DNA from: Nitrososphaeria archaeon
GTDB lineage: Archaea > Thermoproteota > Nitrososphaeria > JACIWG01
NCBI GenBank assembly: GCA_050011875.1
Contig: JBEKIG010000008.1
Span: 30,158-94,157 of the forward strand
DNA length: 64,000 nucleotides
Direction: 5' to 3'
Positions 11,662-56,404 of the stretch are shown here, piece after piece (the first letter of the stretch is position 1; each line of letters begins with the position of its first letter). The notes beneath the pieces were generated by a model. It made no database searches, was not told where the DNA came from, and worked only from the letters and a program-made list of their open reading frames with translations. The translations under genes were made by a program, and so were the position numbers.

Positions 11662-13524
11662 TTAAGCTTTTAGCTTCTCCTTCAATATTTTGTCGACATT
11701 ATCTAGCCCAAGTTGTTTAAGAGTTTCGGAGGTTGGGATGCCTTTACTGTCCCATCCCATTATTTGATAGTATTCATTTATCATCTTTTCAACTTCGTCC
11801 CTGTTCGTACTTTTACCTTTGTAGGGTCCTGAGGGTAGAGGCTCATAGAACCTTGAAGGATTTTCGTCGACTCCGGCCCAGCTCGCATCAGGTCCTCCTA
11901 CAAGAACCGCTGCCCTTTGAATCTGGAGAATTCTTTTGGCGATGTCGTTGTACCATTCATCAAAAGATATTCCGAATCCTGTAACCGCATTTATAAAGTC
12001 TATCTGGAATTGTGGAGTGACCTTGAATTGATTGAACATACAGAATACACCGGAATCCGATATGAGTGTTGTATGCTCACTGCTTCCATGCGTTATCGGT
12101 ATATAGGCTACTGAAGTGTGGTCACCTCCCTGCACCGAACAGGCATAGGATACAGGCTGTACAAAATCGAGGCCGCTTCTTATTCCGTGTGCTCCACAGG
12201 AAACTCCCTTGGATTGAATTGCATACTTTAGCAGATCTTTACCCTTAGTCTTACCTAGCTTCTGTGCCGCCCGATATGTGCCCTCAGCTAGCGTGTTGCC
12301 AATGCCTTTTCTAAAAGCGATCATTTCAGCAAGTTTTGCAAAGGCTTTAGCATCACCCCACTTTAGCTCTATTCCATCAAGATCTTCCTTGGTCAAAATG
12401 CCGCGTTGATATAATTCCCCTGCAAAGCCCATGACGTTTCCCCCTTGAATGCCACAGAAACCTAGGTCTTCAATCATGGAATTCAGATACACGTTAGCTT
12501 CTGGCGTGAAAACCCCCAGGTTTGGCCCAAAATATGCTTGAGTTTCATAGTCTGGATTGTCTGTTACAGCGCCCTTGAACTCGCCTACCCTTACAACCGA
12601 GAGTTTTTCGCATGCTGTTGGGCAGCCGAAGTCAGCCCAAAATCTTTTAACCCAAACCCTGCTCTCATACTGTTCAACACCAATGGATTTTTCATCATGC
12701 CACTCCTCTTGCCAGTTCCTAACAGGCTCTGAGCTTGAATCGTTGCCTACAGCGTAACCTAAATTACCTGTGCCCCATCTTCTAAAAGAGTCGTTTGTAT
12801 AACATGCTTTTCTGCATTCTTCAATAAGTTTTATTGTCCGATCCATGTCGTCAACAGCTGGCAGAGGTCCTGTGCCTCTAGCTAGAACAGCTTTAAGTTT
12901 CTTCGACCCCATTACGGAGCCGTAGCCGCCATATCCTGCTCCATGCGCCCACTTGCCCTGTACACCGGCTATTCTGCATCTATTCTCTCCCGCTGGACCT
13001 ATGTACACCATCGAAGGCTCTCTCCACTCACGTTCGGTGTACTTTTTGTTCCATTCGTCCCTCACATCTCTTGATAGCGTCAGCGAGGTTTTTTTACCGT
13101 CTTTACCCCAAACATAGCTGGCGTCTCTTACTTCAATTGTAGAATCTTTTACGAGTATGTAGGAAGGTTTCTCCGCTACGCCGGTAACGATTAATCCGTC
13201 CCAGCCTGCGCATCTTAGGTCAATTGCAAACTCACCCGCCATTGTGCTTCCGACGATGCCGTTGCTTTGAGGGGACTTCCCTGAAATACAGATTCTCCCG
13301 CCAGGATAATATCCCGTTAGCGGGCCAGTTAAAATTAGTAAAACATTTTCTGGGCCTAGTGGGTCAACTTCATCCCATTTGTCTCCAAGCCGATCCCATA
13401 ATATTTTTACGGATAAACCTCTTCCACCGATGTACGTTCTCAGTGTTTTATCATCAAACTTTACATCCTTTATTTTCCCACTGCTCAAGTCCACTTCAGC
13501 ATATTTTCCTGCATATCCTTTCAT
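11662..13524 (-). CDS. Tungsten aldehyde:ferredoxin oxidoreductase family large subunit, WOR5-like
   Basis: GGRGL, DPLGPEN, TGPLTGYYPG, AGYGGYGSVMGSKKLKA, C-terminal YY..MGWD..G.P. Confidence 0.9.
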   Translation of the reverse strand: MKGYAGKYAEVDLSSGKIKDVKFDDKTLRTYIGGRGLSVKILWDRLGDKWDEVDPLGPENVLLILTGPLTGYYPGGRICISGKSPQSNGIVGSTMAGEFAIDLRCAGWDGLIVTGVAEKPSYILVKDSTIEVRDASYVWGKDGKKTSLTLSRDVRDEWNKKYTEREWREPSMVYIGPAGENRCRIAGVQGKWAHGAGYGGYGSVMGSKKLKAVLARGTGPLPAVDDMDRTIKLIEECRKACYTNDSFRRWGTGNLGYAVGNDSSSEPVRNWQEEWHDEKSIGVEQYESRVWVKRFWADFGCPTACEKLSVVRVGEFKGAVTDNPDYETQAYFGPNLGVFTPEANVYLNSMIEDLGFCGIQGGNVMGFAGELYQRGILTKEDLDGIELKWGDAKAFAKLAEMIAFRKGIGNTLAEGTYRAAQKLGKTKGKDLLKYAIQSKGVSCGAHGIRSGLDFVQPVSYACSVQGGDHTSVAYIPITHGSSEHTTLISDSGVFCMFNQFKVTPQFQIDFINAVTGFGISFDEWYNDIAKRILQIQRAAVLVGGPDASWAGVDENPSRFYEPLPSGPYKGKSTNRDEVEKMINEYYQIMGWDSKGIPTSETLKQLGLDNVDKILKEKLKA

Positions 13525-13528
13525 ACCT

Positions 13529-14068
13529 TCACACCTCCAGTTTTTCTCCGTAAATCAGCTCAGATAACCCTTCCGTTATTAGCTTGGGAAGCTTAGAATA
13601 GAGCCTGTGATTAATATGTTCACCCTCCCCCTTAGTATAGTATTTTGTGCTCAGACAGTTGTACTGGGCTTCCTGACATATTTTTGAACATTGAGGTTCT
13701 CCGTTGCACAGGTCACAAATCGTTGCCTTGTTGTCTGCGGGGTGCAAAAATGGAACATGCCCGGGGCATGCTCGGATGCAATTCTTGCAACTTATGCAGA
13801 TTTTCCTATCAACTAAAACCGCACCAGTTTTCTCGTCGACTGAAAGCGCCTTTTTTGGTTTTGTTGGACAGGAAGCTACACATGGGTAATCATGACATTG
13901 AGCGCAAAGATGAGGAACTTCTAAACCGGGTGCAAGCATGAAGACGCGTACCATTGAAGCTTCAGGCCAGATCTTCTTTTCATGGTATAAGGAGCACGCG
14001 ATTTCACACATTCTACAGCCGGTGCATTTGGGGTAATCTCTCATTACCCAAACCCAATCCGATGACAT
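13529..14068 (-). CDS. Multi-[4Fe-4S] ferredoxin-like small subunit of the W-oxidoreductase
   Basis: CTGCRMCEIAC, CAQC..PCVASCP, CISCKNCIRACP, CDLC...P.C..IC; ends 4 bp before the large-subunit start. Confidence 0.92.
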   Translation of the reverse strand: MSSDWVWVMRDYPKCTGCRMCEIACSLYHEKKIWPEASMVRVFMLAPGLEVPHLCAQCHDYPCVASCPTKPKKALSVDEKTGAVLVDRKICISCKNCIRACPGHVPFLHPADNKATICDLCNGEPQCSKICQEAQYNCLSTKYYTKGEGEHINHRLYSKLPKLITEGLSELIYGEKLEV

Positions 14069-14190
14069 GGCAAACCATTTGGAAGCTTAACCTAATAAGT
14101 ATTTCCAAGTTTGGCTCTGGTGCGTCTTAGGGGCTTACCAATCGGAATATTAGGGTGGTGCATGTCGGGGCATGCAAAGTTCTTAAGACC

Positions 14191-14253
14191 TGCTTTTGAT
14201 GATTAGATCACGACTCTCCGCCACTTATTCTGTGTGACGTTCACCCCAGCCTT
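14191..14253 (-). pseudogene. Decayed C-terminal tail of an IS6-like transposase
   Basis: Translates KAGVNVTQNKWRRVVI*SSKA versus KCGIKIKGENKWITLIQNASKQ in the transposase at 47163-48278. Confidence 0.55.
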
Positions 14254-14313
14254 CTATTACTTTCAACCGATTATGGTTTAGAAAAAACTAATTATTACAT
14301 TGAGGATTTTAAA

Positions 14314-14432
14314 GATGTTGATGTTGTTGATGTTGTTGATGTTGTTAGAGTAGATATAGTAGATAAAGTAGATACTTGCCTATACTTGTATGGTGCATGC
14401 CTATACTTGCATGATGCTTATGCGTACGTACG
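14314..14432. repeat. Low-complexity tandem repeat block inside the MITE
   Basis: GATGTTGTT x3, GTAGATA x3 at 9-bp period, TGCCTATACTTG x2, CGTACGTACG. Confidence 0.85.
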
Positions 14433-14475
14433 TTGTTTATATACGGTGTTTTACTTTGTTTTACGGGGTTTTACT

Positions 14476-14670
14476 ATGTTTAATTCATATTATATTTTTC
14501 TTGTTATGCTTGGCTTCACATTTCTTGTTTTTTCACTCAACTTGTATATTGATTTAAACTACAATACTTTAGAAAAAAACTTAATACTGTGGTTGTACTT
14601 CCTCTTTGGTCTTTCAAGTGTTATTGTTGGCCATCTTATAAAAAGGGGTAAATTTTTTGCGCCACCATAA
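14476..14670 (+). CDS. Small two-TM passenger protein (64 aa) inside the MITE
   Basis: MFNSYYIFLVMLGFTFLVFSLNL...LILWLYFLFGLSSVIVGHLIKRGKFFAPP; TTTATATA about 40 bp upstream. Confidence 0.5.
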   Translation: MFNSYYIFLVMLGFTFLVFSLNLYIDLNYNTLEKNLILWLYFLFGLSSVIVGHLIKRGKFFAPP

Positions 14671-14970
14671 TGCAATGGAGAGATTGCACCTTTTTTTAAG
14701 ATAAAATGTTCTTTTCAATATCTAAAAGATAATGCAAAAAAGGGCTTTTCTGGATTATTATCTACTTTTTTCTCCTTACTTAGATTCGGTATTCTTCTGC
14801 TGGCACCATGCCCCGACTTGCACCACAAGACAATCCTAATTGACTAAGCCCCTAAGACGCACCAGAGCCCCAAGTTTCATCTAAAACTTATGTTAATGTT
14901 TAGAGGGTTGCGAAGTGTACGCTTTTAAAATCGTAACACTTAATAAAAAGAAAGGAGATAAGGTGATTGA

Positions 14971-46059: not shown

Positions 46060-46121
46060 GACTTTATATTTTACAAAGGACTATATTAGACTTCCTCACC
46101 CTTGAGGATTTAAAGCGATTT

Positions 46122-46579: not shown

Positions 46580-46632
46580 AGATGAGCCGACAGTTTACAG
46601 CCAGACAGATGAGCAGTTATCTTATCAGAACC
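46580..46632. repeat. Orphan IS6-like terminal repeat abutting the transposon TSD
   Basis: Reverse complement GGTTCTGATAAGATAACTGCTCATCTGTCTGGCTGTAAACTGTCGGCTCAT aligns without gaps to the ends at 52636 and 53954. Confidence 0.7.
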
Positions 46633-46758
46633 CAGAAAAGGGTTCTGTTAACTTAGTCTAACATGCTTTAACATAATTGTTGCTGTTAACTGGACTGACA
46701 TGGCTTGGAATTTACGGTTCTGTCAACTGTCGGGTGATGATTAAGATAATTCATCACA

Positions 46759-47118
46759 CTAAGAACGTTCTGACAGTATTGATATAATATAGCCCACGAC
46801 AGAGCCCATTAAGAAAGCAAATGTTTCGCCACTAAGTTTCCCACTTTGAGTTAAGAGATAAGCACCAATAACGATACCTGCTATCAAAACGTATGATAGT
46901 GCACTCATTATCATATTCTTTAATCCAAAATAGGACTTTAGAGCATTTAACCCTTTGTCTGCAAACTCGCCGAGCTTATCAATTTGATATTTCTGATTTT
47001 CTAAAGTTTTTAGCTGCACATCTAAGGCTTTCAGTTGCACTTCACCCCAAGTCTTATCTGTCACAGCAGGGGGAACAGTGTAAATCGGTTGAACTCCTTT
47101 ATTCTCTTGATTTGACAT
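46759..47118 (-). CDS. Cargo protein, coiled coil plus 2 C-terminal TM helices
   Basis: 119 aa; own TTTATAA promoter; directly downstream of the transposase. Confidence 0.75.
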   Translation of the reverse strand: MSNQENKGVQPIYTVPPAVTDKTWGEVQLKALDVQLKTLENQKYQIDKLGEFADKGLNALKSYFGLKNMIMSALSYVLIAGIVIGAYLLTQSGKLSGETFAFLMGSVVGYIISILSERS

Positions 47119-47162
47119 ATATCAAATAATCTTTTGTATGATTATAAACTTGTTGCTAATAA

Positions 47163-48278
47163 TTAGTTATCATGTTGTTTTGAGGCATTTTGTATCAGCG
47201 TTATCCACTTGTTTTCTCCCTTGATCTTTATTCCACACTTGTCTGCTGGAGTTTCTCCGTTTAACGCCTCATGTGGTCTAATATAATTGTGGAATATTTG
47301 ACATCCTTTCAGAATCGGCGTATCTGTTTTCTTTAGTCCTCTCATAACCTTCTCTCGGTCTCGGATTTCCCCATTCATCCTCTCCATCTTATTGTTGTGA
47401 ACTTCCCCACTCAAGCGAATATCTCTGATGTGCTTAGTTCTCGGATTATAGTTTGTCCAAAACTCTTTCGTGCATGCGTCTTGATATGCTCGTAATCCAT
47501 CGGTTATTATAGTTAGAGGCTTCTTTCCAGCTATTTCTTTTCCTTCTCTAAATAATCCCCTTGCGTCATGGGTGTATTTTGTGTCAGCAACTTCTTGAGC
47601 TATCCAGAACCTTGTGTCGTCGTCCATTAAGGCGAACAGATACTTCATATTTCCCTTGATCTTAACATAAAGTTCATCTGCTCTCCAAGTGTCTCCAACG
47701 TTGGGCTTTATTTGGTCGAGATATTTCTCCATTAAACCTACATACTTTCCTATCCACTTATAGACAGCTACATGGGATATGTTTACGCCTTGTAGTCTCA
47801 AAAACTTCTGCACACTTCTTAAACTTTCTCCCGTGAAATAGAGTTGCATTGCGGAGGTTATTATTTGAGGGGTGGCGTGCATCTTCTCGAATCCGAGGTT
47901 TACTACAAAAGTTCTGGCACAACTTTTGCATAGGAATTGCTGAATATCACCATAATCGTTGTGTCTTATTCCATGCTTCACAACTTTATCGGATTGGCAT
48001 GCTGGACAAAGTTGAGGGTTAACTGGGCTTATAATTGTCTGGCTGGAAACACTCTGCCTTAACGCTAAACTTATCTCAACACCCCAGATGTGTTTGCATT
48101 TTTCCCCTCGAAACTGGTGGTCGGGGCAGGAACAAATCCATCCTAACTCTGTGCTAAATACTTCATATACACCGTTACCAGACTGAGAATTAACTTTGTA
48201 TAAATGACCGTCAATCCTTTTAATTTGCCCTTCAAGATGGGCTATTTCCTTCCCTTTTTCTTCCCGAAGGTTCATCAT
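47163..48278 (-). CDS. IS6-family DDE transposase with N-terminal SWIM zinc finger and zinc ribbon
   Basis: CSCPDH...CKH (SWIM), CPAC...CKSC, HTH, WRADE, ITDG, NNKMER, RPHEAL.GETPA. Confidence 0.92.
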   Translation of the reverse strand: MMNLREEKGKEIAHLEGQIKRIDGHLYKVNSQSGNGVYEVFSTELGWICSCPDHQFRGEKCKHIWGVEISLALRQSVSSQTIISPVNPQLCPACQSDKVVKHGIRHNDYGDIQQFLCKSCARTFVVNLGFEKMHATPQIITSAMQLYFTGESLRSVQKFLRLQGVNISHVAVYKWIGKYVGLMEKYLDQIKPNVGDTWRADELYVKIKGNMKYLFALMDDDTRFWIAQEVADTKYTHDARGLFREGKEIAGKKPLTIITDGLRAYQDACTKEFWTNYNPRTKHIRDIRLSGEVHNNKMERMNGEIRDREKVMRGLKKTDTPILKGCQIFHNYIRPHEALNGETPADKCGIKIKGENKWITLIQNASKQHDN

Positions 48279-48294
48279 CTTTCTTCCCTATCAT

Positions 48295-48360
48295 TATCTA
48301 CGTAGATATGGTATATTAAGGTATCGGTATCTACGTAGATAAGTGTTATATACGTAGATA
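48295..48360. promoter_or_regulatory. Three palindromic operators in the divergent transposase/AbrB promoter
   Basis: TATCTACGTAGATA at 48295-48308 and 48328-48341; TATATACGTAGATA at 48347-48360. Confidence 0.8.
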
Positions 48361-48374
48361 GGCTATACTAAAGC

Positions 48375-48584
48375 GTGCCCAAATGGAAGAAGGACGAGAC
48401 GAAATTTACGGTTAGTGTTAATTATGAAGAGAAACGTGGAGCGCAAAGCTCCATACCAAAACCTATAGTTGATGCCCTTGGTAAGCCCACAAGAATTACA
48501 TTTCTGTTGAGGGGCAAGAAAGTTGAGGTTAAAGCTTCGGACAGTTCTGAAGTAGTTCAGGCACAAAAAGCTCATATAGCGTAA
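48375..48584 (+). CDS. Small AbrB/SpoVT-like DNA-binding protein
   Basis: SSIPKPIVDALG..TRITF...GKKVEV swapped-hairpin pattern; divergent from the transposase. Confidence 0.7.
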   Translation: MPKWKKDETKFTVSVNYEEKRGAQSSIPKPIVDALGKPTRITFLLRGKKVEVKASDSSEVVQAQKAHIA

Positions 48585-48644
48585 TGACGTAAGGGGTCTG
48601 TGCGCACATCTCGATTTTGCGCTGACGATTGGGAGGGTTCCTGA

Positions 48645-50420
48645 TTGGCTCGAAAAGGACGGAAAGGGATGAAGGAGAAGCCGACCGTTATCAAGAGGAT
48701 TGTTGACAAGTATCTGGTCAAGACCCTTGGCTATGACCTTCAAACTCAACTTTTCTTTGACGAGAATGTGCAGGGGATGGGAGGAAAAGTCTGGGGATTC
48801 ACTGACATCGAGATAAAACTGGACGGAGAGAATACAGATGTCATAATCGAAGCCAAGCGTAGCGGCTTGACTTTAGGGAAGAGCGAAAAGGAGGAGGCTA
48901 TTAAATACGGTAACTCGAAAAAGATTATATGTGTAGTTCTCACTAATGGGACAGACTACATCATTTACAACTCGAACACGAAGAACCAACTGATGCTTAA
49001 CGGGCATATGATGGATGATATTCCTCGTTGCACCGATCTCCCCCTTTTCCTAAGCCGACTCAAAAGAGATTCTGACGATGTGACTTTGACGACGAACGAT
49101 GTCCTTCCTCGAAAGCTTGACAGAATCCTTCAGCCAGCTCTTGAGGACATATTCAGGGCAGAAGCCACAAGGTCGATGGCTGACTTGGAACACATCTTTA
49201 AGCGTTGCCACGACATTCTACGCGACAGTGAACATAAGACCCCTGTAGAGTCCGTTGAGGAGTTCTCGAAGGTCTTATTCCTCAAGTTGTATTCGGAGAA
49301 ATTCTTCAGCGGCACTTTCAAGAACACGAAGCTGAAGCCTGAAGACATAACCTCATTCAACGAAATTGCGCAAGAGTCTAACCCTGCGACGGTGAAGAAA
49401 TTGGTGGTGGAGAATTTTAACGCCTTTATACAGGCTTACAGTGAAGTATTCGATAACAGTGATAGATTCAAGATAAAGAAACCTGAGACCTTCAAAGAGC
49501 TTGTCGATGTGCTTGCGCCAGTCAACTTCGATAGGGATTTTGATGCTGATATTAAGGGCAGGGCTTACGAGCACTTCCTTGCTACGGTTCTGAGAGGAAG
49601 TAAGCTGGGGCAGTTCTTCACCCCCCGTCCCATAGTGAAGATGATGGTCAGGCTTGTCAATCCAAAACCTGACGACATCGTCCTTGACCCAGCATGCGGC
49701 AGTGGAGGCTTCTTAATCAAAGCTATGCAAGTCGTTAATTGGCATATTGACCAGAACGAACACGAAGGGCAGGCAGTAAAAGATGGGAGGCATGAGCACC
49801 TTAGACTGCGTTGTCTTTATGGGGCTGATGCAGGGGTCGTAGCAAAGACAGCCAAGATGAATATGATTCTGGCAGGTGATGGGCATGTTAATATTATTCA
49901 TGAAAACTCACTCACCGAGGAAGTCGATTTTCTACATCTTGACCAAGAACCTCTCTTTGAATCCATTATGACAAACCCACCCTTCGGTCTGAACGAGAAG
50001 ATGAAGGAGAGCCAGCTCGACAAGTATGACGTCCCAATATCGAAGGCGCAATCGCTTTTTCTTCAACTCATGGTTCGAAAGGCTAAACCAAACGGTCTCA
50101 TCTGCTCGGTGGTCGATGAGGGTGTTCTAAACACTCCGACATATAAAGCACTCAGAAAGTATCTTTTCAGGAAGTGCTTCATTCTTGCGGTCTTCTCTCT
50201 TCCCGTCACAACGTTCAAACCTCACTACAGTGGAGTTAAGGCTTCAGTCCTCTTAATGAGAAGGAAGGAGAACGAGCTGGTTAAGCAGAGCTTTCCCGTC
50301 TTCGGCTACGACCTTCAATACGTAGGGTATGATAACACTGGACGAACGGTGGACGAAAACGACATTGAACCAGCCTTGGAGAGCTGGAACGCTCATGTAG
50401 CCAAACTTGTGGGTGCTTAA
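48645..50420 (+). CDS. Fused restriction endonuclease/N6-adenine methyltransferase (type IIB/IIG-like RM subunit)
   Basis: N-terminal D..IEAK nuclease and LTNG; GQFFTPR, DPACGSGGF, NPPF. Confidence 0.9.
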   Translation: MARKGRKGMKEKPTVIKRIVDKYLVKTLGYDLQTQLFFDENVQGMGGKVWGFTDIEIKLDGENTDVIIEAKRSGLTLGKSEKEEAIKYGNSKKIICVVLTNGTDYIIYNSNTKNQLMLNGHMMDDIPRCTDLPLFLSRLKRDSDDVTLTTNDVLPRKLDRILQPALEDIFRAEATRSMADLEHIFKRCHDILRDSEHKTPVESVEEFSKVLFLKLYSEKFFSGTFKNTKLKPEDITSFNEIAQESNPATVKKLVVENFNAFIQAYSEVFDNSDRFKIKKPETFKELVDVLAPVNFDRDFDADIKGRAYEHFLATVLRGSKLGQFFTPRPIVKMMVRLVNPKPDDIVLDPACGSGGFLIKAMQVVNWHIDQNEHEGQAVKDGRHEHLRLRCLYGADAGVVAKTAKMNMILAGDGHVNIIHENSLTEEVDFLHLDQEPLFESIMTNPPFGLNEKMKESQLDKYDVPISKAQSLFLQLMVRKAKPNGLICSVVDEGVLNTPTYKALRKYLFRKCFILAVFSLPVTTFKPHYSGVKASVLLMRRKENELVKQSFPVFGYDLQYVGYDNTGRTVDENDIEPALESWNAHVAKLVGA

Positions 50421-51876
50421 ATTGTCCAAGAACATAGAAATATCGTTAGATGAGATTGAGGAAGGTATCTACGACAGGACGGAGTATCGGCTTGATTTGA
50501 AGTTCTACTCTCCCGTTTTGAAGGACAGCTATGCGCAACTCTTCAAGGGGAAATATCCTATGAAGTTCGTAAAAGACTTAGCCGATTCCGTAGATTCAGG
50601 GGTTACCATCGAAAATAATCTTGAATACAAGTATCTACAGATAAGCGATATAGACGGTGAGCTTGGCGAAGTAGAGGACTATTCCGAGCTTCAGGGCATC
50701 GACCTGCCTTCTCGTGCAAAACTCACACTCATAAAGAATGACATTGTAATATCATCCGTTAGACCGCTCCTGCGTGAAATCGCAATAATCCCAGAAGAAC
50801 TCGATGGGCAGATTGGGACGAACGGATTCATTCAGCTAAGATGCAAAGAAAACGAAATTGAACCTGAGTATCTTTTACACATCTTACGATGTAGGCAGAT
50901 AACAGACGAACTCGACAGACGTTCGAGTGCACTAAACTACCCCGCTATAAGCGAACATGATGTGAAGTATCTCAAGATACCATGCCCACCTCGTGACGTG
51001 AGGCTCGAACTAATTAAGCGATTCTCGGATGCTACAGCCGAAGTTAAGAACATCAAGGATAAGGTCGATATACTTCAGACCGAGCGTAGCCAAATACTCC
51101 CAGCCAAGCTGAGAACTGGAAACATTAAATCCGTGCCAAAAGATGTCGAGTTCTCCTTCGATGAAGCCCAGTCTAACGAAAGCCGTCTTGATGTCAAGTT
51201 CTATAGATATTCGAGGAAGCATCCTTTCGAGCATCTCCCTCTAAAGCAGATATACCCTACCTTGGTCACATTCTCAACGGAAAGAATCAATTTAGACTCT
51301 CAGCCCGATGAGGAGTTTTTGCAGGTAACGGTTAGCAGGAAGAAAGGTGTAGTCTTCAGAGAAAAGAATCAAGGGAATGACATAGGAACCAAAGCGCAAA
51401 CCCTCATCCGCACATGTGATGTCATCGTATCTCGGATTGACCTTTACAATGGTTGCATTGGAATTGTACCCGAAGACCTTGATGGGGCAATTGTCACGAG
51501 AGACTTCATGGTGCTCAAGCTTCATAAGAAAGAAATCGACCCGATTTTCTTCCGAGAAGTGCTGAAGGACAAGGAGATGGCTGACTACTTCTATGCGTTC
51601 GCCGTCGGTGCCACTGGCAGGAAGAGGATCGACCAGAAAGTGTTCCAAGGTCTGAAGATACCTGTTTTGCCTCTTGATCAGCAGTTCAAGATTCGAGATT
51701 TGATTCAGGCGAAAGACAGAGCCATCGAGGAGCTCCAAGTCGAAGCCCGAAGAATTTACAGAGAGGCAGAAGCAGGATTCATGGATGCTCTCGGAGTTCC
51801 AAAGCCGAAGAAGAATCCTGATGACATATCAACTAATCCAGCTCATTCGCTAAAGAAGGCTATCTTCTCGTTATAA
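50407..51876 (+). CDS. HsdS-like specificity subunit with two TRDs
   Basis: Two repeats of RLD.KFY...IP.PP/IPVLP plus coiled-coil spacer; overlaps the RM gene. Confidence 0.88.
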   Translation: MWVLKLSKNIEISLDEIEEGIYDRTEYRLDLKFYSPVLKDSYAQLFKGKYPMKFVKDLADSVDSGVTIENNLEYKYLQISDIDGELGEVEDYSELQGIDLPSRAKLTLIKNDIVISSVRPLLREIAIIPEELDGQIGTNGFIQLRCKENEIEPEYLLHILRCRQITDELDRRSSALNYPAISEHDVKYLKIPCPPRDVRLELIKRFSDATAEVKNIKDKVDILQTERSQILPAKLRTGNIKSVPKDVEFSFDEAQSNESRLDVKFYRYSRKHPFEHLPLKQIYPTLVTFSTERINLDSQPDEEFLQVTVSRKKGVVFREKNQGNDIGTKAQTLIRTCDVIVSRIDLYNGCIGIVPEDLDGAIVTRDFMVLKLHKKEIDPIFFREVLKDKEMADYFYAFAVGATGRKRIDQKVFQGLKIPVLPLDQQFKIRDLIQAKDRAIEELQVEARRIYREAEAGFMDALGVPKPKKNPDDISTNPAHSLKKAIFSL

Positions 51877-52046
51877 TCATGCTCGCCGAACGAGGAATAG
51901 ACAAAACTGTCCTCCACAAGTTAATTGGCAGGGTATAACCCAACAGTTTACGGTCACAAAAAATTAGACGAGAACCAGACAACTTTACAAAGCCCACAAC
52001 TGCAATAGATTAAAGAAATATCAGATAATATGTAACTACAATTACG

Positions 52047-52493
52047 TCAACGAATTATCAGTTCATAATCTTTTTTCTTTACATATTCTCCTGATAAAGA
52101 TATAGTCTTATGATAGGTTTTGCCAGTTGGATACTTTTGAACTTTTGTTAAGGATAAAACAAGGAGAGGTTTCTTATAACTAAGCTGTGTTTGACTGGTA
52201 GTATAATAATCGTAAAATTCTTTCTCAGAGAGAACTAAACTTTCTTTATACTTTGCCAGAATTTCTTTGTAAGAAAGAAACTCTATGTTAGCTATTTCTG
52301 CTTCTCCTGCCAATGTTTTTCCAGAACCTGAAACATAAAGAAAAAGTTTCATCCCTTTTTTAAGACGATATTTCTTTAAATCTCTTGGAGTAAAATGAAT
52401 TTTTTTAACGAAAACCGTTTTCTGCCCATCCATTATTCTATGAACTTGTTGCGGTAGAATAGGAAACACAACACCTACAACTTCTTCCTTCAT
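52047..52493 (-). CDS. DUF365 family (PUA/ASCH-like) protein
   Basis: VGVVFPI...R...KTVFVK, GMKL.LY.S...GEAEI. Confidence 0.8.
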   Translation of the reverse strand: MKEEVVGVVFPILPQQVHRIMDGQKTVFVKKIHFTPRDLKKYRLKKGMKLFLYVSGSGKTLAGEAEIANIEFLSYKEILAKYKESLVLSEKEFYDYYTTSQTQLSYKKPLLVLSLTKVQKYPTGKTYHKTISLSGEYVKKKDYELIIR

Positions 52494-52530
52494 AAACTAT
52501 GTTAAAAATAACGACATTATTATGCTTTAA

Positions 52531-52636
52531 ATGATAAAGGTTGAAGGACAAAACAAATGGGTGACTTTAATCCAGAACGTAAGCTATCAACCGAAAGGTA
52601 AAACCAACATCAGTCAACCGCAGAGGTAACAGAACC
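52531..52636 (+). pseudogene. Transposase C-terminal relic (32-codon mini-ORF) running into an IS6-like IR end
   Basis: MIKVEGQNKWVTLIQNVSYQPKGKTNISQPQR* versus IKIKGENKWITLIQNAS; ends in GTAACAGAACC. Confidence 0.8.
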
Positions 52637-52671
52637 TTTATTTATAACAAGCATAAATATTATGTGATAAT

Positions 52672-53154
52672 ATGACCGAATTAACTGCAACAGAAGGAAA
52701 TGATATTAATTTAAAAAGAAGAGACTACTTATTAGCTCTCCTATCTTCTTTAGGTGATAAAAATACCGAAAATAATCCAATTGATGGAAGACTCCGTCTA
52801 ATGAAAGGGCTTTTTCTTATAGCTGAAGAGGTTGATAAAAGTTTATTGAATGAATTTGAACCGTGGACGTATGGTCCTATCAACTTTAAAGTTTATACTG
52901 ACCTTGAAGATTTACAGAAGGAAAAATTATTGATGGATGATAAAACCCAAAGGATAAGTATTGGTTATTATTATTTGACAAAAAAAGGAAAAGCTAAGGC
53001 AAAGAGAATAATTGAATCATTTAATGATGAGCAAATTGACAAAATTAGAGACATCAAGTCTACAATCACAAAGAACTCTCTGAGAGACCTTCTAAAACTT
53101 GTATATTCAAAATATCCTGAATACGCAACTAAGAGTGTAATTAATATCTCATAA
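52672..53154 (+). CDS. SocA/Panacea (DUF4065/YwgA-like) protein
   Basis: GRLRLMKGLFL, FEPWTYGP, Y.LT.KG, LLKLVYSKYPEY. Confidence 0.72.
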   Translation: MTELTATEGNDINLKRRDYLLALLSSLGDKNTENNPIDGRLRLMKGLFLIAEEVDKSLLNEFEPWTYGPINFKVYTDLEDLQKEKLLMDDKTQRISIGYYYLTKKGKAKAKRIIESFNDEQIDKIRDIKSTITKNSLRDLLKLVYSKYPEYATKSVINIS

Positions 53155-53166
53155 TGATGAACTGGA

Positions 53167-53919
53167 TTGACTCTCATCACAGCTCTTGTTTGTTGCGATG
53201 GCGTAGTGATGGCATCTGAAAGTCAAGCCACAACGAGTGCAACTGGTACCCCTGTTAAACAAAAGACCTCCAAGATTAAACAATGCTCTAACAGCCCTAT
53301 TATTTGGGGAGCAGCAGGTGATGTATCAGTTATTCAAAAAATAGAAAAGGAATTAGATAGACAAATATCTCAAATGTCAAATATCTCGACACAGTTAGTA
53401 GTTGATATTGTTAAGAACGCTATGGTGGGCATTAGACAGGAAACGATAAGCAGATACCGTGGTATATATGGTTCCCTGATTGGTGATAGAAAAGCCCCAG
53501 CAGCAGTTACAATGGTTGTTGGCTACGAACAAAGTTTACCTACTATAATCATAATCGATCAAGATGGCGAAGATGTTGATTGCCATGAATTTGGTTATGC
53601 AGCTATCGGTATTGGTGATATTTTTGCTCATTCTCTTCTCCACAACCACAAAATTGGCGATATTACTTGCCTCAGAGGTCAAGTTTTAGCATACAAGGTT
53701 ATTAAAGAAGCTATAGAAGTGGGAGCCTATGGTTTAGGCGAGCCAGTAGATGTTTGGGCTATCCAGTTTGCGGATAACAAGCCCAAGATTAATCATCTAT
53801 CACAAGAGCAAATTAACGCCCTTGAAGATACTCATGATGCACTGAAAAAACTTGAGATAAATCTCTTCAAAGAGCTACAGATGGGTGAGCCCAGCAATAC
53901 TTCATCACCCGACGGTTAA
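53167..53919 (+). CDS. Proteasome-beta-like Ntn hydrolase without propeptide
   Basis: M-TLITALVCCDGVVMASESQAT: Thr1, Glu17, Lys in SKI; WGAAG; AAIGIG; TTG start. Confidence 0.82.
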   Translation: MTLITALVCCDGVVMASESQATTSATGTPVKQKTSKIKQCSNSPIIWGAAGDVSVIQKIEKELDRQISQMSNISTQLVVDIVKNAMVGIRQETISRYRGIYGSLIGDRKAPAAVTMVVGYEQSLPTIIIIDQDGEDVDCHEFGYAAIGIGDIFAHSLLHNHKIGDITCLRGQVLAYKVIKEAIEVGAYGLGEPVDVWAIQFADNKPKINHLSQEQINALEDTHDALKKLEINLFKELQMGEPSNTSSPDG

Positions 53920-53961
53920 CAGGGAGAACAATCACCCGACATCTTAACAAAACCAGTCTAT

Positions 53962-54010
53962 CTAAATTTAGAAGGACAAAACAAGTGGATAACCTTAATA
54001 CGAAATGTCA
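53962..54010 (+). pseudogene. Second transposase C-terminal relic
   Basis: LNLEGQNKWITLIRNV; nucleotide match AAAACAAGTGGATAAC to the transposase 3' end. Confidence 0.8.
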
Positions 54011-54072
54011 ATTATTGTCACAATTGTTATAGAAAGGTTAAATATGCATCCAATTTACTGTATCCATAATAA

Positions 54073-54483
54073 GTGATCATTTTGCCGTTATCGGACGATG
54101 CTAAAGAATTTCTAAACAATTATTTTGAAAAAACAATTGGTCTTCCCATAAAGTTTGAATATGTATGGTTTTATCGCCCTGTTTTTCACGAACTTCCTTT
54201 TGAGAATATTGAACCAATAGAAGATATTAAAAGGGCAAGTGGCTGTGAAGCACTTTATGTCCTATTTAAAATGCGTTATCAAAATAGAGATTATGAATAT
54301 GAAGTAAGATTTAGTAATAATAATAGAGAGTTAATTTTGAAGAATTGCTTCCTCAAGTATTTTAGTATATTTGCTCATGAACAACCTGAAGATGTAGCTA
54401 AAGATATAAACAAAAAAATGGAAGGGACGGCTAAGCTCGTCTGCATGGTTATTGTGACAAGCTTGGAGAAGCTTAACTCTTAG
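54073..54483 (+). CDS. Hypothetical cargo protein
   Basis: 136-aa ORF with BRE/TATA-like GAAAGGTTAAATA upstream. Confidence 0.6.
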   Translation: MIILPLSDDAKEFLNNYFEKTIGLPIKFEYVWFYRPVFHELPFENIEPIEDIKRASGCEALYVLFKMRYQNRDYEYEVRFSNNNRELILKNCFLKYFSIFAHEQPEDVAKDINKKMEGTAKLVCMVIVTSLEKLNS

Positions 54484-54808
54484 TTTCGAGCAGCTTAATC
54501 AATTGTGGTCGTATTTTGTCGAATTTATCAGTAAGCTCGTAAAATCGCCCAGCTCTACCTGCTGGAGAATTTGGGCGTTCTATGAACTTAAATTGGCTTT
54601 TAACGAATCCATTCTCTTCTAAAGTCGACAAATGAAATGATACAAGCTGTCGGTCTGCTCCAATCTTTTCTGCTATTTGATCAATATAGCGGGGCTGTCC
54701 ATCTTCTTTTAGTGCATTTATGATTTTCCATCGCATCGGATGTAGCACTAACACGCCATCCTTTATTGTTTTTTCATTCTTAGGTTCCTGACTCATATAT
54801 CCTAACAC
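54473..54808 (-). CDS. ArsR-like winged-helix regulator
   Basis: LHPMRWKII..L, IAEKIG..RQLVSFHL..LE..G.V, FYELT. Confidence 0.85.
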   Translation of the reverse strand: MLGYMSQEPKNEKTIKDGVLVLHPMRWKIINALKEDGQPRYIDQIAEKIGADRQLVSFHLSTLEENGFVKSQFKFIERPNSPAGRAGRFYELTDKFDKIRPQLIKLLETKS

Positions 54809-54840
54809 CTATCATTATGCGTTATACACTCCTATATCAA

Positions 54841-54923
54841 GTTATTGTATTTGCACGTAAAAAAGATATTAGCATATGCTCAAGGTTATTGTATTTGCAC
54901 GTAAAAAAGATATTAGCATATGC
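54841..54923. repeat. Exact 39-bp direct repeat (44-bp period) in a divergent promoter region
   Basis: GTTATTGTATTTGCACGTAAAAAAGATATTAGCATATGC at 54841-54879 and 54885-54923. Confidence 0.92.
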
Positions 54924-54958
54924 AAATATAATTTTATATAGTACCATCATAATATCTA

Positions 54959-55156
54959 ATGTGCGATAAAATGTCAAAGGATAATGATTGGCTTAACATC
55001 GTCGGAGCCTTATTAGGTATCGTTGCGAGTTTAATGACAATAGGTGCTTATTTCAATAGAACTACCTGTCCATGTGATGGTACGAGACTCCCCCTCGTAG
55101 GCGACACCGAAATTTTTGGAAAACGTTACTGTGCAACATGCAAAGAATGGCATTAA
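54959..55156 (+). CDS. Small TM-anchored zinc-ribbon protein
   Basis: One TM helix then CPCD...CATC. Confidence 0.65.
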   Translation: MCDKMSKDNDWLNIVGALLGIVASLMTIGAYFNRTTCPCDGTRLPLVGDTEIFGKRYCATCKEWH

Positions 55157-55270
55157 TCACCAAATGGTGGAAAAGAGGGCACCGAGAACCTGATGCGTTT
55201 GTTTTTTGTTCAGCATAAATCAAACTATTTACTCTAAATCTTTTAAAGTCTCAAAATATAGATTGTTGGT

Positions 55271-55762
55271 ATGAAAACCGCCATCTTTTTGGTTGGAGAT
55301 TATAATAGTGGCAAATCATCCATAGTTAGAGCATTAACTGGTTGCTCCAGAGCACGTATTTGGAAGGTGATTAATGCATCAGGAAGAAAGATAAATGCTC
55401 TTGTCATATTATCTACATTCCAAGAAAACCCTATTAAAGCAATAATCCCACCAGAAGACTTACCAAATGAATTAGAGAGACAATATGGAGATTACGAATT
55501 GTTAATATGTCCGATTGAAATAAGCCACTCGGAAGATCATAAATCTGAGGAATATCTGAAGTCATTCATGTCTAAAAAATATGATGTGAAAATAACTCTT
55601 ATTGAAAAAGGATACGACGGCAGATCACCAGCCCCATCAGACCTTAGCCGAGTCAGAGACTTTGCTTCAACTAATGGAATTACCCTACTCCCCTTAGATA
55701 TATCGAATAGTGATGAACATACGGAATCCCGAAAAATAAGAGACAAACTTTACCCACCTTAA
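55271..55762 (+). CDS. Small P-loop NTPase of unknown family
   Basis: GDYNSGKS Walker A at the N-terminus; no clear DxxG or NKxD. Confidence 0.75.
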   Translation: MKTAIFLVGDYNSGKSSIVRALTGCSRARIWKVINASGRKINALVILSTFQENPIKAIIPPEDLPNELERQYGDYELLICPIEISHSEDHKSEEYLKSFMSKKYDVKITLIEKGYDGRSPAPSDLSRVRDFASTNGITLLPLDISNSDEHTESRKIRDKLYPP

Positions 55763-55888
55763 TAATTCTCCACGCCATGTTAGTCTGGTTAACAGCAACA
55801 AGAACGTTAGAGCATGTTTGATTAAGTTAACAGAACCCAGAAAAGGAATACTTAAATATATCCTAATTACAAATAATAATGAATACTT

Positions 55889-56404
55889 ATGTCCAAAGAG
55901 AAAAAGGGAGCACTTGTAGTTAAGAAGGCAAATAAGCCTGCGATTGTCGTTAAAAAACCTCAACCCAGTGAAATTCAAGAGTTCAACAAGTTGTTAGATA
56001 CGTTTCGGAGTGAGTTAATTTGGGATCCCTTCCGAGGATTCGAGTGGCCTATTGAATATGAACTCCCGACACGAATACCCTATGTTGATGTTATCGACTC
56101 TGGTAACGAGTATGAAGTAAGAGCAGAGCTTCCAGGGTTGAAAAAGGAAAACGTGAAGATTGAAGTTGGGACGAACGAGTTGTCGCTGACTGCTAAATCT
56201 GATGTTGAGAAGGAGGAAAAGGAGGGAAAAACCTATTTGCACAGGGAAAGAGCTTTCTCCGCATTCCGCAGATATATAGGATTCCCCGAAGGCGTAGATG
56301 TTGAAAAAGTATCAGCTAACATAGCTGAAGGTATCCTCGAAATAAAACTTCCCAAACTCGAGCACAAGCCTGAAACGAAAAGAAAACAGATAACAATCCA
56401 ATAA
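55889..56404 (+). CDS. Hsp20/alpha-crystallin small heat-shock protein
   Basis: VDV, AELPG, F.R.I.FP, A....GILEIKLPK, ITI. Confidence 0.95.
   Translation: MSKEKKGALVVKKANKPAIVVKKPQPSEIQEFNKLLDTFRSELIWDPFRGFEWPIEYELPTRIPYVDVIDSGNEYEVRAELPGLKKENVKIEVGTNELSLTAKSDVEKEEKEGKTYLHRERAFSAFRRYIGFPEGVDVEKVSANIAEGILEIKLPKLEHKPETKRKQITIQ

What the first reader, a model, noticed from the sequence alone, without database searches (positions are those of the whole stretch)
14069..14112. Both IS6-like elements inserted in the same register directly upstream of a TATA box: possible promoter-targeted transposition
Seen: reading toward the neighbouring gene, the MITE flank is TSD AAACTTGG + AAATA + CTTATTAG (ferredoxin/WOR promoter, ATG 36 nt past the TSD). 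The transposon flank is TSD CAGAAAAG + GAATA + CTTAAATA (hsp20 promoter, 55838-55858). The TSDs are unrelated, yet both are followed by RAATACTTA with the TATA-like box exactly 5 nt away. An older IR end at 46632 abuts the same 8-bp site, implying two separate insertions there. Inference: these SWIM-domain transposases may be recruited by promoter-bound TBP/TFB, or read the BRE-TATA sequence, giving safe-haven insertion that leaves the core promoter intact, analogous to yeast Ty3 targeting by TFIIIB. I know of no such description for archaeal IS elements. The evidence is only two sites.
Basis: partly seen in the sequence, partly recalled or inferred. Interest (0 to 1): 0.85.

Follow-up and report, generated by a model that had tools for sequence, protein, structure and literature searches.

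The report
Archaeal transposons that land beside TATA boxes
Both mobile elements in this archaeal genome, and most of their relatives in other archaea, sit exactly five bases upstream of a gene's TATA box, so this transposon family appears to aim at promoters, which I did not find described for archaea.

Summary
The 757-bp MITE (14113-14869, TSD CCAAGTTT) and the 9.2-kb IS6-like transposon (46641-55837, TSD CAGAAAAG) each have one flank reading TSD + 5 nt + TATA-like octamer + start codon. In 120 related loci from Nitrososphaeria, Bathyarchaeia and Methanoregula, a preset TATA test (TTTAWATA, 6 or more of 8) is met exactly 5 nt past the TSD at 20 of 55 sites. A hold-out set gave 17 of 26. Any other offset gives about 1-2. 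After removing look-alike flanks the count is 30 of 74. The two positions matching the genome's BRE-like A-tract are A-rich, start codons lie mostly 30-40 nt further on, and either transposon end can face the promoter. Elements pile up in arrays that share one 8-bp duplication and end at a TATA box. A sister genome carries a different element in the same hsp20 site and has the MITE site empty. Hot promoters are often chaperone or repair genes (hsp20, thermosome, CDC48, RadA). Targeting is close to certain. Whether the transposase reads TBP/TFB-bound promoters or bare BRE/TATA DNA is open, and one SWIM-less relative shows a near-identical register. Five literature searches found no archaeal report. 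Earlier notes of this scan saw the same in DPANN and Asgard genomes.

The parts
14113..14869 (.). 757-bp non-autonomous element (MITE) with perfect 25-nt terminal inverted repeats (14113-14137 and 14845-14869)
   Evidence: Only copy in the genome. Absent from the sister genome G401, which has the empty site.
14105..14112 (.). Left copy of the MITE's 8-bp target duplication CCAAGTTT (right copy at 14870-14877)
   Evidence: A single copy stands at the empty site in L159 1501-1508.
14092..14104 (-). BRE-like AAATA plus TATA-like CTTATTAG of the ferredoxin/AFOR promoter, starting 5 nt after the TSD. The ATG lies 31 nt after the start of the TATA box.
   Evidence: The sister genome has TTTATTAG here. 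TATA-like boxes peak at -31 from ATGs genome-wide.
11662..14068 (-). 4Fe-4S ferredoxin (13529-14068) and aldehyde:ferredoxin oxidoreductase (11662-13524), read from that promoter
   Evidence: Pfam
46641..55837 (.). 9.2-kb IS6-like cargo transposon with 70-nt imperfect inverted repeats beginning GGTTCTGTTAACTTA
46633..46640 (.). Left copy of the 8-bp target duplication CAGAAAAG (right copy at 55838-55845)
46617..46632 (+). Relic of an older element end (...TTATCAGAACC) abutting the same 8-bp site
   Evidence: A comparable relic stands in the syntenic locus L077.
47163..48278 (-). Transposase, 371 aa: SWIM zinc finger, zinc ribbon, DDE_Tnp_IS240 catalytic domain
   Evidence: Pfam. The CxC...CxH and 2x CxxC motifs are invariant in 42 homologues.
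48645..55762 (.). Cargo: N6 DNA methylase with HsdR-N domain (48645-50420), type I specificity subunit (50407-51876), DUF365 (52047-52493), proteasome-like protein (53167-53919), ArsR-type HTH (54473-54808) and ORFs without a family
   Evidence: Pfam
52535..52636 (+). Internal relic: the end of a transposase gene plus an element end (...GGTAACAGAACC), about 89-90% like the inverted repeat of the element in L077
   Evidence: (D3, I2)
55846..55858 (+). BRE-like GAATA plus TATA box CTTAAATA of the hsp20 promoter, starting 5 nt after the TSD
   Evidence: The same promoter is in L077.
55889..56404 (+). hsp20 (small heat-shock protein). Its ATG lies 38 nt after the start of the TATA box.
   Evidence: Pfam

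Best explanation
Both elements belong to a large archaeal branch of IS6-like DDE transposons that choose their target by the promoter. Strand transfer takes place on an 8-bp stretch whose promoter-side edge lies 5 bp upstream of the TATA box, at the upstream edge of the BRE-like A-rich region. BRE, TATA box and gene stay intact, and everything further upstream is pushed away. The duplicated 8 bp next to the TATA box recreates the target, so later elements land in the same 8 bp and older copies are pushed outward into arrays.

Shown here: the fixed register, its independence of the TSD sequence and of element orientation, reuse of sites, and real promoters downstream.

Inferred: the transposase docks on the promoter as bound by TBP and TFB, as yeast Ty3 integrase docks on TFIIIB, rather than reading bare DNA. 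Stress promoters that hold these factors for long would then be hit most often.

My odds: aimed insertion at this register about 0.95, recognition through TBP/TFB about 0.5.
For: Register. Among 99 free flanks, 15 match TTTAWATA in 7 or more of 8 positions exactly 5 nt after the TSD. Seven do so at +3, and 0-2 at every other offset.

Per site. 20 of 55 sites in the first set and 17 of 26 in the hold-out set score 6 or more at +5. Other offsets average 1.65 and 1.29 sites. After collapsing look-alike flanks the count is 30 of 74 against 2.8, binomial about 2e-23.

BRE. Positions +1 and +2 were not part of the test, yet each is A in 34 of 51 flanks. This matches the genome's own promoters, which are 48-54% A at -4/-3 from the TATA box.

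Real promoters. A start codon follows 25-49 nt after the TATA start in 43 of 57 cases.

Orientation. The promoter lies at either transposon end (10 versus 6, p 0.45).

Site reuse. 23 of 26 abutted end pairs are exactly 8 bp apart. Arrays share one TSD and end at a TATA box; L057 has five identical spacers.

Independent hits. Sister-genome locus L077 has a different 4.9-kb element (transposase 71% identical in DNA, flanks 92-94%) in the same hsp20 site with the same TSD. Look-alike promoters in different genomes were hit with different TSDs.

The MITE's empty site stands in G401.

For the tether reading, suggestive only. Accepted TATA boxes are degenerate but functional-looking. Hot promoters are hsp20, thermosome, CDC48, HtpX-like peptidase, RadA, TBP and TFB genes.
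Against: Nothing here separates a TBP/TFB tether from direct reading of BRE/TATA DNA.

About a fifth to a quarter of sites show no TATA-like box at +5 or +3 (16 of 74 score below 5).

A minor second register at +3 exists.

Sites from related genomes are not fully independent, even after collapsing.

My TATA test is a consensus recalled from the literature, not a trained model.

No element was found with an exact 8-bp duplication in some of the 80 loci and in 14 of the 40 regions. Those were not analysed.
Confidence: 0.5

Rival explanations
1. Direct read-out. A DNA-binding part of the transposase (zinc ribbon, HTH or SWIM) itself recognises the A-rich BRE plus TATA sequence, or its shape, next to the integration site. 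No host factor is involved.
For: The flank motif has clear sequence content: A at +1/+2 and TTTAWATA at +5 to +12. The register is the same across three distant archaeal lineages. A SWIM-less transposase sits in a near-identical register.
Against: The motif is indistinguishable from the genome's general BRE/TATA promoter motif. Quite degenerate boxes are accepted (CTTATTAG, CTTAAGAA, TTTATCAG). Hits are nearly always in front of genes at promoter distance. Chaperone and repair promoters are over-represented. A pure sequence reader does not predict that, unless those promoters simply have the best consensus.
Confidence: 0.35
2. Targeting of element ends. The transposase aims at the 8 bp next to an existing end of a related element, as IS26 prefers a resident IS26. 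The nearness to TATA boxes would then be secondary.
For: 23 of 26 abutted ends are exactly 8 bp apart. The window's transposon abuts an older end relic.
Against: Most sites have no abutting end on either side yet still show the TATA box at +5. Of 124 flanks only 23 are abutted. The MITE site was a plain promoter. Where an array's end is visible it mostly stops at a TATA box: roughly 22 of about 27 by my reading. That is what repeated promoter targeting predicts.
Confidence: 0.05
3. Survivorship only. Insertion is random or merely AT-biased, and only copies just upstream of core promoters are harmless enough to persist.
For: Intergenic persistence of insertion sequences is common (general knowledge).
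Against: Selection cannot give a single-base register, with counts of 0-2 at offsets 12 and 14 against 15-20 at offset 13. It cannot explain identical TSDs within arrays. It cannot explain two different elements in exactly the same 8 bp in sister genomes.
Confidence: 0.03

Closest known systems
IS6/IS26 family insertion sequences (IS26, IS257, IS240, IS6100; review PMC7986276, passages seen)
   Same: Both have the DDE_Tnp_IS240 catalytic domain, 8-bp target duplications and inverted-repeat ends starting with GG. Some members have a zinc-finger N-terminal extension; the review describes this for its clade h from Clostridia.
   Different: Classical members are about 0.8 kb with one gene, and the review names a single passenger-carrying member. 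The elements here are 2-10 kb with cargo. In the passages I saw, the review's only mentions of target specificity were two titles in its reference list (IS26, IS911). It discusses hybrid bacterial promoters and targeted insertion next to a resident IS26, not promoter-register targeting.
TnGBS conjugative elements, the ISLre2 family and the ISKra4 group (prokaryotic Mutator-like transposases; PMC3942029, abstract and passages seen)
   Same: These are DDE transposons that insert at a fixed distance upstream of a core promoter element (15-17 bp upstream of the -35 box of sigma-A promoters) and leave the promoter intact. Elements with near-perfect inverted repeats insert in both orientations, as here.
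   Different: They are bacterial, target sigma-A promoters and belong to another transposase superfamily. No Mutator family was hit here. The distance and the landmark (BRE/TATA) differ. Most TnGBS-type elements insert in one orientation. That paper only speculates that archaeal ISH6, which duplicates an AT-rich target, might favour promoters.
Yeast Ty3 (integration at Pol III start sites through TFIIIB, which contains TBP and the TFB-like Brf1). Recalled; no paper read here.
   Same: Both show single-base precision relative to a TBP-containing initiation complex, and both use a safe-haven logic.
   Different: Ty3 is an LTR retrotransposon with a retroviral-type integrase. It lands at the transcription start, not upstream of the TATA box. 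Its tether is shown by experiment; here a tether is only inferred.

Membership tests
IS6/IS26 family | Transposase with the IS240-type DDE catalytic domain | tested here: met
   PF13610 at E 1.1e-15, residues 196-333. Catalytic-region residues are invariant in 42 homologues.
IS6/IS26 family | 8-bp target site duplication | tested here: met
   Window elements. 61 elements in the first set, 3 in the own genome and 26 in the second set have exact 8-bp duplications. The search required an exact 8-bp duplication, so other lengths were not sampled.
IS6/IS26 family | Short terminal inverted repeats beginning GG | tested here: met
   GGTTCTG.../GGCTCTG... ends. The family consensus I compare with is recalled; the review's logo figure was not visible.
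IS6/IS26 family | Small element (about 0.7-0.9 kb) with the transposase as its only gene | tested here: not met
   Elements with a transposase are about 2.0-9.2 kb in the first set (plus three short gene-less ones of 0.5-0.7 kb) and 2.3-6.6 kb in the second, and they carry cargo genes. This is therefore an IS6-like cargo-transposon branch, not a canonical IS.
IS6/IS26 family | Replicative cointegrate or targeted conservative mechanism | not testable with these tools
   Sequence alone cannot show the pathway.
MITE (non-autonomous derivative) | No transposase gene, terminal inverted repeats, target duplication, related autonomous element elsewhere | tested here: met
   757 bp with only a 94-aa ORF that matches no family. 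Perfect 25-nt inverted repeats and a TSD. Elements in L006 and L056 have ends of the same type, GGTTCTGGTGC.... No cognate transposase was found in this genome.
Promoter-targeting Mutator-like transposons (TnGBS/ISLre2/ISKra4) | Mutator-superfamily (p-MULT) transposase | tested here: not met
   Pfam gives IS240/rve-type DDE. Only the SWIM finger is shared with eukaryotic MULEs. This is a likeness of behaviour, not membership.
Promoter-targeting Mutator-like transposons (TnGBS/ISLre2/ISKra4) | Insertion at a fixed distance upstream of a core promoter element | tested here: met
   The landmark is an archaeal BRE/TATA at 5 bp, not a -35 box at 15-17 bp.

The most novel reading that the evidence does not exclude
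An archaeal DDE transposase is physically guided by the TBP-TFB-promoter complex. It would be a prokaryotic counterpart of Ty3 and TFIIIB that evolved independently. It would prefer promoters that hold these factors for a long time, such as repressed or poised heat-shock and DNA-damage genes. Transposon pile-ups would then be a natural record of promoter occupancy, and the enzyme could serve for promoter-adjacent integration in archaea.
Probability: 0.45. Interest if true: 0.92.

Novelty: new variant of a known kind. Interest (0 to 1): 0.85.

Why it matters
Promoter-aimed transposition is known from a few bacterial elements (TnGBS, ISLre2) and from yeast retrotransposons. I found no report for archaea, whose promoters work like eukaryotic ones.

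Here a widespread archaeal transposon family lands with single-base precision at the upstream edge of BRE/TATA. The family occurs in ammonia oxidisers, Bathyarchaeia and methanogens.

This explains several things: why these elements are tolerated, why they stack in arrays with one shared duplication, and how they come to sit in front of chaperone, repair and even TBP and TFB genes.

It offers a direct test of whether a transposase can read the archaeal pre-initiation complex. It gives a free marker for annotating promoters in uncultured archaea. It may also show how cargo genes are picked up.

Tried and rejected
1. Copies in the own genome. Each window element is single-copy in this 119-contig draft, so the test had to use relatives.

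2. Predicted complex of the transposase N-terminus (residues 1-130) with TBP and the TFB core, all given as alignments. The verdict was 'no answer' (score 0.02, mark 0.32). It says nothing either way.

3. A second end for the old relic left of the transposon. None was found. Homology with the sister genome stops near 46114 without an inverted repeat, so the relic is only a stump. It could even be native sequence that resembles an end.

4. SWIM-less relatives in G133 (L111, L112, L116). No clear ends were found, so the SWIM-less evidence rests on one element (C2:36712-41482).

5. Age order within arrays, using inverted-repeat identity (L047). This was not informative.

6. End-targeting and survivorship were considered and rejected as main causes (see the rival explanations).

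7. Rows dropped. Two composite pairs longer than 9 kb in L047 were removed. The GGTAACG-ended subfamily was excluded by the end filter and analysed separately. Loci without an exact 8-bp duplication were not analysed.

8. Literature. Searches found no archaeal report. Passages were read from PMC7986276, PMC13343696, PMC6640164, PMC3942029 and PMC6563490. Supplementary tables were closed. Those of PMC3942029 (insertion sites) and PMC6563490 (IS coordinates) might hold relevant sites.

Full report
**What is in the window**

The MITE spans 14113-14869. It has perfect 25-nt inverted repeats and the duplication CCAAGTTT. Read towards the ferredoxin/aldehyde:ferredoxin oxidoreductase operon (Pfam), its flank is AAACTTGG AAATA CTTATTAG. 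The ATG lies 36 nt past the duplication.

The transposon spans 46641-55837, with 70-nt inverted repeats and the duplication CAGAAAAG. Its right flank is CAGAAAAG GAATA CTTAAATA, and the hsp20 ATG stands at 55889.

Its transposase (371 aa) has a SWIM finger, a zinc ribbon and the IS240-type DDE domain. Its cargo includes a type I methylase and specificity subunit, a proteasome-like protein and an ArsR-type regulator. A stump resembling an element end (...TTATCAGAACC) abuts the left duplication copy.

The window is contig C8 of a 2.64-Mb, 119-contig genome with 40.8% G+C. Its closest named relatives are Nitrososphaeria MAGs.

**Is the insertion real and recent?**

The same-genus genome G401 has the MITE site empty. 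It carries one CCAAGTTT between the same flanks, with TTTATTAG as the TATA box. The TATA box is therefore host sequence, not part of the element.

**Relatives**

Each element is single-copy in this draft genome, so I collected relatives.

- Set 1: 80 loci encoding transposases 56-82% identical, from Bathyarchaeia, Nitrososphaeria and Methanoregula MAGs. These were the best 80 of 169 relatives.
They were found with a different query, the 301-aa SWIM-less transposase of contig C2.

A script looked for GG...CC inverted-repeat ends (12 or more of 16 bases) with an exact 8-bp duplication. It found 61 elements in set 1, 3 in the own genome and 26 in set 2.

**The test**

Before counting, I fixed a crude TATA score: the number of matches to TTTAWATA. 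That consensus is recalled.

- Among 99 free flanks, 15 score 7 or more of 8 exactly 5 nt after the duplication. Seven do so at +3. Every other offset from 0 to 51 has 0-2.
- Per site, taking the better of the two flanks at a score of 6 or more: 20 of 55 in set 1 and 17 of 26 in set 2. Offsets 25-55 average 1.65 and 1.29 sites, with maxima of 3 and 4.
- After collapsing flanks that are 70% or more alike, 84 sites become 74. Then 21, 30 and 52 sites score at least 7, 6 and 5. The null means are 0.35, 2.8 and 11. Binomial tails run from about 1e-16 for the sets taken alone to 2e-31, and about 2e-11 for a collapsed set 2. Related genomes are not fully independent, so these figures overstate.
- Positions +1 and +2 were not part of the score, yet each is A in 34 of 51 flanks.
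- In this genome's own upstream regions (1347 ORFs), TATA-like boxes peak at -31 and at -42 to -37 from the ATG. They are preceded by 48-54% A at -4/-3. The flank motif is therefore the ordinary BRE/TATA promoter motif. The ferredoxin (-31) and hsp20 (-38) spacings fall in the two usual classes.
- A start codon of an ORF of 50 aa or more follows 25-49 nt after the TATA start in 43 of 57 cases. For 27 of the 84 sites no such ORF was assigned.
- The promoter can lie at either transposon end (10 versus 6).

In the own genome, three further elements or ends fit: C2:72678-75277, C2:36712-41482 and a solo end on C20. One solo end on C1 is ambiguous.

**Reuse of sites**

Ends of two elements facing each other are exactly 8 bp apart in 23 of 26 cases.

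Arrays share one duplication, and where an end is visible they stop at a TATA box. L057 has five identical TTACGTAA spacers and then CAATA TTTATATG. L060, L046, L048, L047, L073 and others behave likewise. By my reading, about 22 of some 27 arrays with a visible end do so.

This follows from the model. The duplicated 8 bp next to the TATA box is again a perfect target, so newcomers push older copies outward. The window's stump at 46632 is the distal remainder of such a history.

In the syntenic locus of a sister genome (L077; flanks 92-94% identical) a different 4.9-kb element sits in the very same 8 bp with the same duplication. Its transposase is 71% identical in DNA and its inverted repeats differ after about 13 nt.

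Look-alike promoters in different genomes were hit with different duplications. The landmark is therefore the promoter, not the 8 bp.

**Which promoters**

Of 57 downstream ORFs scanned, 6 are RadA. These come from look-alike promoters in related ammonia-oxidiser-type genomes. Three are thermosome, 2 CDC48, 2 TBP, 2 TFB and 2 ribosomal P protein. Further scans gave hsp20 (three Bathyarchaeia loci, besides the window and L077), an HtpX-like M48 peptidase and one more thermosome.

Chaperone and repair genes are thus far more frequent than their share of a genome. I did not test this formally.

**Mechanism**

Shown: aimed insertion with the duplication ending 5 bp upstream of the TATA box, at the upstream edge of the BRE-like tract.

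Not shown: how the promoter is recognised.

I favour docking on TBP/TFB-bound promoters (about 0.5), for three reasons:
- the motif is exactly the host's promoter motif;
- degenerate but functional-looking boxes are accepted;
- stress promoters dominate.

Direct read-out of BRE/TATA DNA remains a serious rival (about 0.35).

The SWIM-less element in a near-identical register (9-bp duplication + 5 nt, or 8 + 6) suggests that the determinant, whatever it is, lies in the part shared by both transposase types. That is a single case.

**Known relatives and novelty**

The transposase domain, the 8-bp duplication and the GG ends place the elements with the IS6/IS26 family. Size and cargo do not fit the canonical form (membership table).

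In behaviour, the nearest described systems are TnGBS, ISLre2 and ISKra4. They insert 15-17 bp upstream of bacterial -35 boxes (PMC3942029). Yeast Ty3 is also close; this comparison is recalled.

Six full-text searches found no report of TATA-register targeting in archaea. Passages from the IS6 review, a 2026 archaeal IS survey, a Thaumarchaeota mobilome paper and a Pyrococcus re-annotation also contained none. Supplements could not be opened.

Earlier unchecked notes of this scan reported the same 5-nt register for IS6-like elements in DPANN archaea. They reported other fixed distances for other families in Asgard and DPANN genomes, and the 8-bp tip-to-tip habit. So the scan has met this before on other DNA. 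The present work extends it to Nitrososphaeria, Bathyarchaeia and Methanoregula, with a hold-out test.

Noticed in passing
L048 11620-11665, L057 13799-13845, L060 11766-11810, L075 4770-4815, L041, L038, L045, L051 flanks: Heat-shock-type promoters in Bathyarchaeia loci (hsp20, thermosome, HtpX-like peptidase) carry a palindrome GTTAC-N5/6-GTAAC just downstream of the TATA box. It is a candidate operator of a heat-shock regulator. These promoters hold the largest transposon pile-ups.
   Followed up: partly
L133, L138, L139, L142, L143, L145 (TATA flank): The radA promoter of ammonia-oxidiser-type genomes (CTTATAAA followed by the palindrome GTACTGGTACCGTACC) is occupied by different elements in six genomes. 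It is a conserved hot spot and possibly an operator.
   Followed up: partly
window 52535-52636 and 53963-54015: Inside the 9.2-kb transposon lie two relics of transposase gene ends. One has an element end about 89-90% like the inverted repeat of the L077 element, and it stands 35 nt before the ORF at 52672. This suggests cargo is gathered by nested or adjacent insertions followed by loss of an end.
   Followed up: partly
window 48645-51876: The transposon carries a type I methylase (with an HsdR N-terminal-like domain) and a specificity subunit, but I saw no separate restriction subunit in the element.
   Followed up: no
window 53167-53919 and 48375-48584: A proteasome-like protein and a small 69-aa ORF with no family hit ride on the transposon.
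   Followed up: no
window 14303-14350: The MITE contains a short tandem run of ATGTTG-type units and a 94-aa ORF (14386-14670) that matches no family.
   Followed up: no
L009, L032, L043, L059: These contigs are labelled as bacterial MAGs (Limnocylindrales, Williamwhitmania, 'bacterium') but carry this archaeal transposase family. In three of the four (L009, L043, L059) an archaeal-type TATA flank is seen. They are probably mis-binned archaeal contigs.
   Followed up: no
L014 14660-15214, L064 8218-8772 and two TFB genes in alignment A1: The genes for TBP and TFB themselves are among the promoters with an element 5 nt (L014) or 3 nt (L064) upstream of their TATA box.
   Followed up: partly
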